A DNA stretch of 64,000 bases from Escherichia coli (GCF_036507355.1 NZ_AP027878.1); one strand, 5' to 3'; positions 30,364 to 32,438 are shown, numbered from the stretch's first letter. Program-made: numbers and translations. The notes: generated from the letters alone by a model not told the origin.

Positions 30364-31395
30364 CTAATCGCCATCTTCCAGCAGGCGCACCATTGCCCCT
30401 GTTTCACTATCCAGGTTACGGATATAGTTCATGACAATATTTACATTGGTCCAGCCACCAGCTTGCATGATCTCCGGTATTGAAACTCCAGCGCGGGCCA
30501 TATCTCGCGCGGCTCCGACACGGGCACTGTGTCCAGACCAGGCCAGGTATCTCTGACCAGAGTCATCCTTAGCGCCGTAAATCAATCGATGAGTTGCTTC
30601 AAAAATCCCTTCCAGGGCGCGAGTTGATAGCTGGCTGGTGGCAGATGGCGCGGCAACACCATTTTTTCTGACCCGGCAAAACAGGTAGTTATTCGGATCA
30701 TCAGCTACACCAGAGACGGAAATCCATCGCTCGACCAGTTTAGTTACCCCCAGGCTAAGTGCCTTCTCTACACCTGCGGTGCTAACCAGCGTTTTCGTTC
30801 TGCCAATATGGATTAACATTCTCCCACCGTCAGTACGTGAGATATCTTTAACCCTGATCCTGGCAATTTCGGCTATACGTAACAGGGTGTTATAAGCAAT
30901 CCCCAGAAATGCCAGATTACGTATATCCTGGCAGCGATCGCTATTTTCCATGAGTGAACGAACCTGGTCGAAATCAGTGCGTTCGAACGCTAGAGCCTGT
31001 TTTGCACGTTCACCGGCATCAACGTTTTCTTTTCGGATCCGCCGCATAACCAGTGAAACAGCATTGCTGTCACTTGGTCGTGGCAGCCCGGACCGACGAT
31101 GAAGCATGTTTAGCTGGCCCAAATGTTGCTGGATAGTTTTTACTGCCAGACCGCGCGCCTGAAGATATAGAAGATAATCGCGAACATCTTCAGGTTCTGC
31201 GGGAAACCATTTCCGGTTATTCAACTTGCACCATGCCGCCCACGACCGGCAAACGGACAGAAGCATTTTCCAGGTATGCTCAGAAAACGCCTGGCGATCC
31301 CTGAACATGTCCATCAGGTTCTTGCGAACCTCATCACTCGTTGCATCGACCGGTAATGCAGGCAAATTTTGGTGTACGGTCAGTAAATTGGACAT
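30364..31395 (-). CDS. cre: Cre tyrosine site-specific recombinase
   Basis: 343 aa MSNLLTVHQNLPALPVDATSDEVRKNLMDMFRDRQAFSEHTWKMLLSVCRSWAAWCKLNNRKWFPAEPEDVRDYLLYLQARGLAVKTIQQHLGQLNMLHRRSGLPRPSDSNAVSLVMRRIRKENVDAGERAKQALAFERTDFDQVRSLMENSDRCQDIRNLAFLGIAYNTLLRIAEIARIRVKDISRTDGGRMLIHIGRTKTLVSTAGVEKALSLGVTKLVERWISVSGVADDPNNYLFCRVRKNGVAAPSATSQLSTRALEGIFEATHRLIYGAKDDSGQRYLAWSGHSARVGAARDMARAGVSIPEIMQAGGWTNVNIVMNYIRNLDSETGAMVRLLEDGD, recognised as P1 Cre. Confidence 0.95.
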   Translation of the reverse strand: MSNLLTVHQNLPALPVDATSDEVRKNLMDMFRDRQAFSEHTWKMLLSVCRSWAAWCKLNNRKWFPAEPEDVRDYLLYLQARGLAVKTIQQHLGQLNMLHRRSGLPRPSDSNAVSLVMRRIRKENVDAGERAKQALAFERTDFDQVRSLMENSDRCQDIRNLAFLGIAYNTLLRIAEIARIRVKDISRTDGGRMLIHIGRTKTLVSTAGVEKALSLGVTKLVERWISVSGVADDPNNYLFCRVRKNGVAAPSATSQLSTRALEGIFEATHRLIYGAKDDSGQRYLAWSGHSARVGAARDMARAGVSIPEIMQAGGWTNVNIVMNYIRNLDSETGAMVRLLEDGD

Positions 31396-31402
31396 TTAAC
31401 AC

Positions 31403-31624
31403 TCAGATAATGGTTTTAAGTAAAGTGTACAGGATCGGCTCTGCCTTTACCTGTTTATGGTTCTCGTCATAGAAACGCCAGCGACCGCGCGTGCGTTCTA
31501 TTTTCTCTTCACCGCGCGATAATGACAGTTGGCAACTATCACGATCAAACCCTTTTGCCCGCCAGTAACCACGGTTTTTCTCAAGCTCAAGATGAGTGGA
31601 CACTTTAGCAGTTGAATATCCCAT
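31403..31624 (-). CDS. Small ORF in the loxP-cre leader (73 aa), hypothetical
   Basis: GAGGTG RBS 4 nt before ATG; ends 8 bp before cre start; preceded by the recurrent motif. Confidence 0.3.
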   Translation of the reverse strand: MGYSTAKVSTHLELEKNRGYWRAKGFDRDSCQLSLSRGEEKIERTRGRWRFYDENHKQVKAEPILYTLLKTII

Positions 31625-31813
31625 TTTTCACCTCTGATTGATTGGTGGTGCTAAGTGCGCTACGCGAAATCTGTAGGACTAACACCGCCAATTTTTCACA
31701 GATTTTACGTAGCGCAACCTTGATCAAATGATCAAGTGGTCACTATTTGACCTGCTAAGGTATTGAACTGTATGGATTTACAGGTAAATTGATCATATTC
31801 AATAACCCTTAAT

Positions 31814-31847
31814 ATAACTTCGTATAATGTATGCTATACGAAGTTAT
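31814..31847. other. loxP: loxP recombination site
   Basis: Exact ATAACTTCGTATA-ATGTATGC-TATACGAAGTTAT. Confidence 0.97.
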
Positions 31848-31880
31848 TAGGTCTGAAGAGGAGTTTACGTCCAGCTGCGC

Positions 31881-31897
31881 ATAAAAATCAAGAATTA
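31881..31897. promoter_or_regulatory. C1 operator (immC array)
   Basis: AGAATTATTAGAGCAAT, 2 mismatches to reverse-complement consensus. Confidence 0.6.
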
Positions 31898-31973
31898 TTA
31901 GAGCAATAAATTTTGAGAGAAAAATCCAACTCCACCAGCCAAAAACTGGATTGTTTTTCATAGTTGTTTGACA

Positions 31974-31990
31974 ATTGCTCTAATAAATTA
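31974..31990. promoter_or_regulatory. C1 operator overlapping a TTGACA -35 element
   Basis: ATTGCTCTAATAAATTA, one mismatch; TTGACA at 31969-31974. Confidence 0.65.
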
Positions 31991-32228
31991 TAGTTTTGCC
32001 GCCGTTTCGTAATACGACTTTGGATTCACTATTTAATGTGTCTTCAGCGTTGTAGAGCGGCTCAGAAGGAAATGAGCAAACAGGGAAACCTTATACAACG
32101 GCATTACAGCTATGCATTGCTCATCTTACACACAGCGCAATGTTGTTAGATTACCCCAGCATGGATCATGGGTGAAACAGTAGGTCAGAGCTTCAGGCTC
32201 TGTGTTGTCAATACAGTGAGGCATAATT

Positions 32229-32438
32229 ATGGCTTTCATTCCACCAACCATCGACGACGTTAGACATTGCTCTAACGCTTTATCTGTAGACCCCGCCGAA
32301 ACCGACGCTGCCCGCGCCATTGCTGAACACTACTCAAAGATATCCAATCAGGAGTACCGCATCACCCAAGACGACCTGGATGATCTCACTGACACAATCG
32401 AATATCTCATGGCCACTAACCAGCCAGACTCACAATAA
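32229..32438 (+). CDS. coi: Coi, C1 inactivator
   Basis: 69-aa ORF directly upstream of c1 as in P1. Confidence 0.75.
   Translation: MAFIPPTIDDVRHCSNALSVDPAETDAARAIAEHYSKISNQEYRITQDDLDDLTDTIEYLMATNQPDSQ

What the first reader, a model, noticed from the sequence alone, without database searches (positions are those of the whole stretch)
31403..31847. The loxP-cre leader carries a small ORF, a 17-bp inverted repeat and clustered Dam sites
Between loxP and cre there is a 73-aa ORF with a strong RBS (GAGGTGAAAAATG) ending 8 bp before cre. Upstream lie a 17-bp imperfect inverted repeat with a 23-bp spacer (31657-31674 and 31698-31715) and two GATC sites within TGATCAAATGATCA (31721-31735). Methylation-sensitive control of cre transcription is known for P1; the leader ORF and the inverted repeat are extra candidate regulatory elements.
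Basis: partly seen in the sequence, partly recalled or inferred. Interest (0 to 1): 0.4.

Follow-up and report, generated by a model that had tools for sequence, protein, structure and literature searches.

The report
Phage P1 cre gene control region
This is the long-known control region of the phage P1 cre recombinase gene (the small ORF is the annotated gene cra, and the GATC pair is the known Dam-sensitive promoter), but the inverted repeat is a copy of a conserved element of unknown function found next to Cre-type recombinase genes in many bacteria.

Summary
The window is phage P1 itself: it is 100% identical to AF234172. All three observations are real.

- **The 73-aa ORF (31403-31624, minus strand)** is cra, called ORF1 in the 1986 record and annotated since then. 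It is a genuine protein gene: dN/dS is 0.06-0.34 and homologues reach down to 32% identity. It usually sits 7-8 nt upstream of a Cre homologue. Its function is still unknown.
- **The two GATC sites** are the annotated Dam sites 2 and 3, in the -35 region of promoter pR1 (P3cre). Their clustering is not statistically unusual, but the pair is kept in every P1-like lineage examined.
- **The inverted repeat** (arms 31656-31674 and 31698-31716, 17/19 complementary) is not annotated. Its upstream arm contains the pR1 -10 hexamer.

The same element recurs widely, with arms of about CGCTACG-YR-AAWWYTG and a nearly fixed core length of 53 nt:
- in all P1-like lineages;
- in more than 1000 Klebsiella conjugative plasmids;
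- in 97 stretches of DNA from representative genomes of other Gammaproteobacteria.

About 40% of those copies lie beside tyrosine recombinase genes, typically in the order lox-like site, repeat, recombinase.

The two arms vary independently with no compensatory changes, so a protein-binding DNA element fits better than an RNA hairpin. The binding factor is unknown.

Verdict: the finding as written is already known. The repeat family is a modestly interesting new lead.

The parts
31814..31847 (.). loxP (13-bp arms, 8-bp spacer)
   Evidence: Perfect 13-nt inverted repeat with 8 nt between the arms. Annotated as lox in AF234172 and X03453.
31791..31794 (.). Dam site 1 (GATC)
   Evidence: Annotated in AF234172 at positions 37-40. 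Present in the sequence.
31763..31790 (+). Promoter P2coi, reading away from cre across loxP towards coi and c1
   Evidence: AF234172 annotation at 41-68 on the complementary strand. Mapping: window position = 31831 minus P1 position.
31766..31785 (.). LexA box (CTGTAAATCCATACAG core) between the -35 and -10 of P2coi
   Evidence: Annotated as protein_bind LexA in P1 and P7. A box of the CTGT-N8-ACAG type is kept in all P1-like lineages; the L010 lineage has CTGG in the first half.
31722..31733 (.). Dam sites 3 and 2 (two GATC, 8 nt apart) in the -35 region of pR1
   Evidence: AF234172 positions 98-101 and 106-109. Two GATC just upstream of the repeat are kept in L004, L007, L010 and L013 despite sequence divergence.
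31702..31727 (-). Promoter P3cre = pR1 (-35 TTGATC at 31722-31727, -10 TAAAAT at 31702-31707)
   Evidence: AF234172 positions 104-129 and X03453 positions 155-180. The -10 lies inside the upstream arm of the repeat.
31656..31716 (.). 61-bp inverted-repeat element: arms 31656-31674 and 31698-31716, centre 31675-31697
   Evidence: Same arms and same spacing in all P1-like lineages, in Klebsiella plasmids and in 97 stretches of DNA from other Gammaproteobacteria.
31635..31645 (-). Conserved CCAATCAATCA motif between the repeat and the ribosome-binding site
   Evidence: Kept (CCAATCAATCA or CCAATCATYC) in P1, L004, L007, L010 and L013 although the downstream gene differs. Function not examined.
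31629..31634 (-). Shine-Dalgarno GAGGTG of cra
   Evidence: Sequence. Annotated as a putative rRNA-binding site in X03453.
31403..31624 (-). cra (ORF1, Upf0.2), 73 aa, function unknown
   Evidence: Matches phrog_804 at E = 1e-34. Purifying selection. Homologues listed.
31519..31548 (-). Promoter P2cre = pR2, inside cra
   Evidence: AF234172 annotation at 283-312. Not re-tested here.
31407..31431 (-). Promoter P1cre = pR3, inside the 3' end of cra
   Evidence: AF234172 annotation at 400-424. Not re-tested here.
30364..31395 (-). cre, 343 aa

Best explanation
The region is the documented regulatory region of the P1 cre gene.

1. **cra.** The 73-aa ORF is a real, conserved small protein gene. It is transcribed with cre from pR1 and ends 7 nt before the cre start, so the two are probably co-expressed. 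Its biochemical role is unknown.
2. **GATC pair.** It sits in the -35 region of pR1. Full Dam methylation lowers pR1 activity. This is established knowledge (Sternberg et al. 1986), recalled from memory; here only the GenBank annotation could be checked.
3. **Inverted repeat.** It is one copy of a sequence-conserved 53-61-bp element that accompanies Cre-type and other tyrosine recombinase genes in Gammaproteobacteria. The two arms keep their sequence but vary independently of each other, and their spacing is nearly fixed. I infer that it acts as double-stranded DNA: two half-sites for a protein, plus a conserved asymmetric centre. In P1 the upstream arm covers the pR1 -10, and the predicted start site lies between the arms. 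Occupancy would therefore gate transcription into cra-cre.

**Shown here:** identity with P1, gene status of cra, conservation and distribution of the repeat, and absence of covariation.
**Inferred:** DNA-level protein binding and repression of pR1.
**Unknown:** the binding factor.
For: **Identity and annotation.** 100% identity to AF234172. Features as annotated.

**cra.**
- Substitutions by codon position are, for example, 17/13/43, and dN/dS is 0.06-0.34.
- The cra-to-cre gap of 7-8 nt is kept where Cre is 80% identical.
- It is also kept where Cre is 64% and Cra only 39% identical.

**Repeat.**
- It has the same arms and the same 43-nt distance between GCTACG and CGTAGCGCA in five P1-like lineages, in Klebsiella plasmids and in L103.
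- 97 stretches of DNA from representative genomes carry it.
- The core is 53 nt in 121 of 139 distinct copies.
- 40 of 99 copies lie within 600 nt of a tyrosine recombinase gene from three families.
- In 15 of 21 Pantoea-type modules the order is lox-like palindrome, then 63-146 nt, then the repeat, then about 35-45 nt, then the start codon.

**No covariation between arms.** Watson-Crick counts equal the shuffled expectation at the variable positions: p = 0.77, 0.33, 0.80 and 0.97, with only position 9 at p = 0.015. A.A or T.T mismatches occur in 40% of copies at position 9.

**Overlap with the promoter.** The pR1 -10 lies in the upstream arm.

**Independence from Cra.** The repeat occurs without cra (L103, Klebsiella plasmids, Pantoea), so it does not depend on Cra.
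Against: - No binding protein is identified, and no known operator consensus that I could recall fits the arms.
- A centre-to-centre distance of 42 bp is unusual for a simple dimeric repressor.
- The element folds into a very stable hairpin as RNA. The leader has z = -3.85.
- In Pantoea-type modules, promoter-like sequences lie upstream of the repeat (read by eye), so there the repeat would be transcribed.
- Many copies lie 23-27 nt after a stop codon, a position typical of RNA 3' hairpins.
- The orientation of the asymmetric centre relative to the neighbouring gene differs between lineages: P1, Alteromonas and Buttiauxella are opposite to Pantoea.
- The copies were found with a sequence pattern, so the conservation of the pattern positions is partly by construction.
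- I could not read Sternberg 1986 or Lobocka 2004, so the repeat may be mentioned there.
Confidence: 0.55

Rival explanations
1. The repeat works as an RNA hairpin in the 5' leader or in an intercistronic position. It would be a target for RNase III or another RNA-binding protein and would set mRNA stability or translation of the downstream recombinase.
For: - Predicted stem of about 18 bp. The leader has an MFE of -43.9 kcal/mol and z = -3.85.
- Promoter-like sequences with GATC pairs lie 80-130 nt upstream of the repeat in Pantoea-type modules (read by eye).
- Copies lie 23-27 nt after stop codons of SLT and VF530-like genes.
- A subset of copies has an inner stem in the centre, for example CAGGG/CCCTG.
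Against: - There are no compensatory changes. The arms vary independently, and A.A or T.T mismatches are common.
- The arm sequence itself is conserved across hosts in which the neighbouring recombinases are only 22-44% identical to Cre.
- The annotated pR1 -10 is inside the upstream arm, so the pR1 transcript would lack that arm. A transcript starting there folds no better than shuffles (z = -0.81).
- The orientation relative to the gene is not fixed.
- The centre folds only weakly (mean z = -0.84).
- No Rfam family matches.
Confidence: 0.2
2. The repeat is a recombination-related or mobile DNA element. It could be an accessory or secondary site used by tyrosine recombinases, or a REPIN/MITE-like unit whose two arms are recognition sequences of a transposase-like enzyme.
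For: - The arms are independent copies of one motif.
- Copies adjoin three different tyrosine recombinase families.
- 17 of 102 loci hold more than one copy within a few kb.
- Variable cargo genes sit directly after the leader in P1 relatives.
- The element occurs on phage-plasmids, on conjugative plasmids and next to an IS.
Against: - There is one copy per replicon in E. coli: the median is 1 per genome, and 723 of 735 places are on plasmids. That is not a dispersed repeat.
- The position between the lox-like site and the recombinase gene is kept across deep divergence, which suggests vertical inheritance under selection.
- The arm sequence stays the same while the lox-like sites differ, so it is not read by the site-specific surface of each recombinase.
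- No target-site duplication was seen by eye.
- The integron attC consensus does not fit.
Confidence: 0.15
3. The 73-aa ORF is only a regulatory leader ORF. On this reading, the act of its translation controls cre through coupling or attenuation, and its product does not matter.
For: - It has a strong Shine-Dalgarno sequence, and its stop lies 7 nt before the cre ATG.
- The annotated pR2 and pR3 promoters and the cre ribosome-binding site lie inside it.
Against: - The amino-acid sequence is under purifying selection, with invariant motifs such as GYWRAKGF kept down to 32% identity.
- Homologues exist with no recombinase downstream.
- In relatives, a 356-aa gene precedes cra and overlaps its start (ATGA).
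Confidence: 0.08

Closest known systems
P1 cre regulatory region as described by Sternberg et al. 1986 (X03453) and annotated in the P1 genome (AF234172, Lobocka et al. 2004)
   Same: It is the same DNA. The ORF1/cra gene, promoters pR1-pR3 (P3cre-P1cre), the Dam sites in and near the -35 of pR1, the LexA box and P2coi are all annotated.
   Different: Neither record annotates the 19-nt inverted repeat. The 1986 sequence carries an error in the downstream arm (CGTACCAC instead of CGTAGCGCAC), which shortens the apparent repeat.
Palindromic operators that overlap a promoter (repressor-operator control)
   Same: Two inverted half-sites conserved in sequence, one of them covering the -10 hexamer, with the predicted start site between the arms.
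   Different: The half-sites are 19 bp long and 42 bp apart centre to centre, with a conserved asymmetric centre. No cognate protein is known. The element also occurs after stop codons and far from obvious promoters.
Accessory sequences of plasmid dimer-resolution sites (cer/psi with ArgR, PepA, ArcA)
   Same: A conserved protein-type site lies roughly 60-150 bp to one side of a tyrosine recombinase core site, on plasmids.
   Different: Cre-loxP is known to need no accessory factor (established knowledge). The arms do not match the ARG box. About 60% of copies have no recombinase nearby.
REP/REPIN elements and integron attC sites (folded inverted repeats recognised by HUH or tyrosine enzymes)
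   Same: Imperfect inverted repeats of 50-60 nt with conserved ends, a variable centre and a recurrent mismatch in the stem.
   Different: It is low copy, usually one per replicon. The outer ends do not fit RYYYAAC/GTTRRRY. No RAYT or integron integrase was found beside it. The position is syntenic across deep divergence.
Frpo single-stranded-DNA promoters of plasmid leading regions
   Same: The Klebsiella plasmid copies lie near psiA in the leading region, and the element carries a -10-like hexamer in a stem.
   Different: Frpo needs both the -35 and the -10 inside a long stem (PMC11541004). Here the arms are 19 nt and hold only the -10. P1 DNA enters as a duplex (established knowledge).

Membership tests
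P1 cre regulatory region (X03453 / AF234172) | Sequence identity with the published locus, with loxP, ORF1/cra and cre in that order | tested here: met
   100% identity over the part of the query held in AF234172, and 99.7% to X03453. Feature tables. ORFs.
Cra protein family (phrog_804; Cra/Upf0.2) | Significant full-length profile match, and conservation as a protein | tested here: met
   phrog_804 at E = 1e-34 over residues 3-73. 45 homologues. 16 representatives at E <= 1e-3. dN/dS 0.06-0.34. No Pfam, NCBIfam or PADLOC family.
Dam-regulated promoter | GATC inside a promoter hexamer | tested here: met
   GATC at 31722-31725 lies within the annotated -35 TTGATC of P3cre. A second GATC lies 8 nt upstream.
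Dam-regulated promoter | Promoter activity changes with methylation state | not testable with these tools
   Reported by Sternberg et al. 1986 (recalled from memory; the paper is not held). Here only the annotation 'Dam methylation site within the regulatory region of cre' could be checked.
Structured RNA (conserved hairpin) | Base pairs maintained by compensatory changes | tested here: not met
   Watson-Crick counts at the variable positions equal the shuffled expectation (p = 0.33-0.97; position 9 p = 0.015). 40% of copies have A.A or T.T at position 9. No Rfam hit.
Intrinsic terminator | G+C-rich stem followed by a T run | tested here: not met
   The scan found no terminator-like site at the repeat on either strand. 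The flanks are ACTTAGC and ACCTTGA.
Frpo / ssDNA promoter | -35 and -10 both inside the stem of a long hairpin | tested here: not met
   The arms are 19 nt and contain only the -10. The annotated -35 lies outside the repeat. Definition from PMC11541004.
Integron attC | Outer boxes RYYYAAC ... GTTRRRY, and an integron integrase nearby | tested here: not met
   The outer ends are (T)GCGCTACG ... CGTAGCGCA. The neighbouring recombinases are Cre-like. The consensus was compared by eye from memory.
REP / REPIN | Many dispersed copies per genome | tested here: not met
   Median of 1 place per E. coli genome, highest 2, and 723 of 735 places on plasmids. One place per plasmid record in the rows listed.
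LexA (SOS) box | CTGT-N8-ACAG | tested here: met
   CTGTAAATCCATACAG lies within 31766-31785. It is annotated in P1 and P7 and kept in relatives. Binding was not tested.
Regulatory leader peptide | The peptide sequence is free to vary; only its translation matters | tested here: not met
   Strong purifying selection and invariant motifs.

The most novel reading that the evidence does not exclude
The 61-bp inverted repeat is a previously undescribed, deeply conserved cis-element of Cre-type recombinase modules (lox-like site, then repeat, then recombinase). It has spread across Gammaproteobacteria and is also used at other loci. It would be read by a conserved, still unidentified factor that couples expression or action of these recombinases to host state. 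If so, native Cre-lox has a control layer that four decades of work on the minimal system overlooked.
Probability: 0.3. Interest if true: 0.65.

Novelty: already known. Interest (0 to 1): 0.33.

Why it matters
As written, the finding restates the annotated P1 cre regulatory region, so it adds nothing new about the ORF or the Dam sites. Its value is in confirming that cra is a real gene that still has no function.

The part worth following is the repeat. Cre-lox is the most widely used recombinase system, yet its native control is little studied. A sequence-conserved element sits between the lox-like site and the recombinase gene. It is kept between P1 and Pantoea-type modules whose recombinases are only 38-44% identical to Cre. 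It is also present beside two more distant recombinase families that lack a detected lox-like site. That pattern would point to a shared regulator or accessory factor.

It could also help to locate native target sites and promoters of new Cre-type recombinases. Published searches looked only for 13-15-bp palindromes with an 8-bp gap (PMC10250229).

Tried and rejected
**Function of Cra**
- No Pfam, NCBIfam or PADLOC family matches.
- The two AlphaFold models have low to moderate confidence (pLDDT 68.8 and 65.4) and disagree at the N-terminus.
- Foldseek against the PDB gave nothing; the best E-value was 0.63.
- 'Cra binds the repeat' was rejected as a necessary link, because the repeat occurs widely without cra.

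**Identity of the repeat**
- No Rfam family matches P1, the Klebsiella plasmid or 12 other loci.
- It is not an intrinsic terminator.
- The simple sigma-70 scan found no consensus promoter in 31300-32300. The annotated promoters are therefore weak matches to the consensus.
- I first thought the outer flanks covaried (for example GGCATCG/CGATGCC). Permutation showed they do not.
- An inner hairpin in the centre is present only in a subset (mean z = -0.84).
- A second pairing in P1, between the repeat centre and the downstream segment CTTAGCACCACCAA, is not kept in relatives.

**Known binding sites compared by eye, from memory.** None fits in spacing or in the key bases:
- sigma-54 -24/-12. Only the commonest P1-like variant, TGGCAG-N5-GTGCT, fits the spacing; the others are off by one.
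- sigma-32, sigma-E (TCTGA) and the RfaH ops site.
- ArgR, CRP, PurR, DnaA, IHF and Lrp.
- XerC/D arms, P1 ParB box A, Tn3 terminal repeats and the E. coli Z1 REP.

**Literature**
- Sternberg 1986, Lobocka 2004 and Sauer & McDermott 2004 are not held.
- A full-text search for the arm sequences found only unrelated primers.

**Cargo genes.** The 356-aa and 68-aa genes of relatives match only PHROGs of unknown function.

Full report
**What the window is.** The 601 bases around the finding are 100% identical to phage P1 (AF234172, NC_005856) over the part those records hold. They are 96-99.8% identical to P7, SJ46, RCS47 and other P1-like phages. Window position equals 31831 minus the P1 position. 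On the minus strand lie cre (30364-31395) and the 73-aa ORF (31403-31624). loxP is at 31814-31847. The c1 and coi genes lie beyond loxP on the plus strand.

**Check of the observation.** All three features are present.
- *ORF.* It has GAGGTG 4 nt before its ATG, and it stops 7 nt (not 8) before the cre ATG.
- *Inverted repeat.* The arms are 19 nt (31656-31674 and 31698-31716), 17 of 19 complementary, 23 nt apart. The half-site is unique in the 64-kb window at up to three mismatches.
- *GATC sites.* They lie at 31722 and 31730. GATC is not over-represented in the window (272 against 261 +/- 16), and other close pairs exist. The clustering by itself is therefore weak evidence.

**What is already on record.** The P1 genome record annotates the following:
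- the ORF as cra ('putative cre associated function');
- three GATC as Dam methylation sites within the regulatory region of cre;
- promoter P3cre (= pR1), with its -35 at window 31722-31727 and its -10 at 31702-31707;
- P2cre (pR2) and P1cre (pR3), both inside cra;
- a LexA box (31766-31785) inside a divergent promoter, P2coi.

The 1986 record X03453 already lists ORF1 (aa 1-73), pR1-pR3 and both ribosome-binding sites. P7 calls the gene upf0.2. Later plasmid papers list it only as 'putative Cre-associated regulatory protein' (PMC5786510). From memory, Sternberg et al. (J Mol Biol 1986) showed that pR1 is several-fold more active without Dam methylation. I could not open that paper or the P1 genome paper. 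The ORF and the Dam sites are thus known. The inverted repeat is not annotated in any of these records.

**cra is a real gene.**
- Homologues at 59-68% identity occur in P1-like plasmids of Salmonella, Klebsiella, Cronobacter and others.
- An exhaustive profile search adds a few relatives at 32-39% identity, with invariant residues in a GYWRAKGF-like motif.
- Between lineages, third-codon-position changes dominate (for example 17/13/43), and dN/dS is 0.06-0.34.
- The gene sits 7-8 nt upstream of the Cre homologue where Cre is about 80% identical.
- The same holds in a metagenomic contig where Cre is 64% and Cra 39% identical.
- Some distant homologues have no recombinase downstream, for example next to umuDC and iterons.
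- No family with a known function matches. The structure models are of low to moderate confidence and have no fold match.

This rules out a mere leader peptide. It leaves the function open.

**The leader is a conserved module with variable cargo.** All P1-like lineages keep the same order:
1. the lox site;
2. a GATC;
3. the LexA box;
4. two GATC;
5. the inverted repeat;
6. a CCAATCA(A/T)TC motif;
7. a ribosome-binding site.

The first gene after the leader differs. It is cra in P1. It is a 356-aa gene in L007 and L066, and a 68-aa plus a 356-aa gene in L004 and L010-L013. In each of these the stop of the 356-aa gene overlaps the cra start. These cargo proteins match only PHROGs of unknown function.

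**The inverted repeat belongs to a large family.** The distance between GCTACG and CGTAGCGCA is 43 nt in the P1-like lineages, although the centre diverges. The element also turned up in the following places.
- *Klebsiella plasmids.* A distant DNA search found the same element in more than 1000 Klebsiella IncFIB/IncHI1B conjugative plasmids. The arms are again 19 nt and 23 nt apart. It lies near psiA, with no lox or cre.
- *An IMG/VR contig (L103).* It lies between a lox-like 13-8-13 site and a recombinase 36% identical to Cre, without cra and in the opposite orientation.
- *Representative genomes.* A pattern scan found 97 stretches of DNA in Pantoea, Erwinia, Rahnella, Mixta, Buttiauxella, Yersinia, Alteromonas, Shewanella, Pseudomonas and others.
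- *E. coli.* It is present in 730 of 5426 complete genomes, almost always once and on a plasmid.

The core is 53 nt in 121 of 139 distinct copies.

**Context of the copies.** 40 of 99 copies lie within 600 nt of a tyrosine recombinase gene from three families:
- Cre-like, 38-44% identical to Cre;
- a 400-aa Alteromonas type;
- a 251-aa Buttiauxella type.

In 15 of 21 Pantoea-type modules a lox-like palindrome lies 63-146 nt upstream of the repeat, and the recombinase starts about 35-45 nt after it. Other copies lie between a lytic transglycosylase gene and a cupin gene in Rahnella, or 23-25 nt after a VF530-like gene. 17 of 102 loci hold a second copy within a few kb.

**DNA site or hairpin?** As RNA, the P1 leader would fold very stably (z = -3.85). 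Three results argue against a base-paired function.
- Across 103 non-P1 copies, the arms vary independently. Watson-Crick counts at the variable positions equal the shuffled expectation (p = 0.33-0.97; one position at 0.015). A.A or T.T mismatches occur in 40% of copies at one position. The flanks that looked complementary at first are not.
- The arm sequence itself is conserved, while the neighbouring recombinases have diverged to 22-44% identity to Cre and the lox-like sites have changed.
- In P1 the annotated pR1 -10 lies in the upstream arm, so a pR1 transcript would lack that arm. Such a transcript folds no better than shuffles.

The centre carries an asymmetric conserved motif (CCCCTGC in most copies, CACCGCC in P1) and only a weak inner stem. 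I therefore favour a double-stranded DNA element with two half-sites and a central contact. In P1 it would overlap pR1 and could gate transcription into cra-cre.

This is an inference. No binding factor is identified, the spacing is unusual for a repressor, and many copies sit where RNA 3' hairpins usually sit. No Rfam family matches, and no open-access paper holds the arm sequence. Searches for Cre-type target sites looked only for 13-15-bp palindromes with an 8-bp gap (PMC10250229). That explains how the element could have been missed.

**Verdict.** The finding as written is confirmed but already known: the ORF is cra and the GATC pair is the Dam-sensitive pR1. The repeat is real, unannotated and a member of a widespread conserved element of unknown mechanism. 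Interest is low for the stated finding and moderate for the repeat family.

Noticed in passing
window 31403-31624 (cra) and its homologues: NCBI and RefSeq name many Cra homologues 'creatininase'. No creatininase family matches in Pfam or NCBIfam, so this looks like a mis-annotation. I suspect it was propagated from the gene symbol cra.
   Followed up: partly
window 31656-31674, compared with L002 (X03453): The 1986 sequence reads CGTACCAC where the genome records and the window read CGTAGCGCAC. This is the '2 gaps' noted in AF234172. The error lies in the downstream arm of the repeat and shortens the apparent palindrome.
   Followed up: yes
L004, L007, L010-L013, L066 (positions about 1190-2504 of each locus): P1-like plasmids of Salmonella, Klebsiella, Cronobacter and others carry a 356-aa gene (phrog_7674) between the conserved leader and cra. 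Most also carry a 68-aa gene (phrog_19934) there. The stop of the 356-aa gene overlaps the cra start. There is no Pfam or PADLOC match.
   Followed up: partly
L014-L016 (Klebsiella IncFIB/IncHI1B plasmids), locus positions about 3005-3075: The same repeat lies in a gene-poor stretch between a DUF1173 gene and a 200-aa gene next to psiA. A small conserved palindrome, AAAAGT(T/A)ACTTTT, lies 18-35 nt away. It resembles the arms of the lox-like site of L103.
   Followed up: partly
L103 positions about 310-345 and 445-1494: A new lox-like site (AAAGTAATATA-AGTGCCAT-TATATTACTTT) lies next to a recombinase 36% identical to Cre, on an IMG/VR phage contig.
   Followed up: partly
L138, L141, L145, L166, L206 (Alteromonas): Two copies of the element lie 0.85-1.1 kb apart in one orientation. 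In L138 they sit inside a stretch of about 2.4 kb with no ORF of 70 aa or more, upstream of a 400-aa tyrosine recombinase gene.
   Followed up: partly
window 31813-31856 (loxP), compared with JX564242 / NC_049809 and NZ_CP043029: The Lactococcus phage Q33 record matches loxP at 95.5% over 44 nt inside its portal gene. A Pseudobutyrivibrio plasmid record ends in a 34/34 match to loxP. These could be engineering or vector remnants.
   Followed up: no
window 31893-31912 and 31968-31992: Two sequences resembling the C1 operator (ATTGCTCTAATAAATT) lie on the far side of loxP, in the immC region upstream of coi and c1 (consensus recalled from memory).
   Followed up: no
L159, L158, L139, L219, L183 and similar Pantoea-type modules, 80-130 nt upstream of the repeat: Pairs of GATC, often as GGATCC-N5-7-GGATCC or TGATCAAATGATCA, lie next to -10-like TATCAT or TATGAT hexamers. 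A Dam-site cluster upstream of the recombinase therefore seems to be kept well beyond P1.
   Followed up: no
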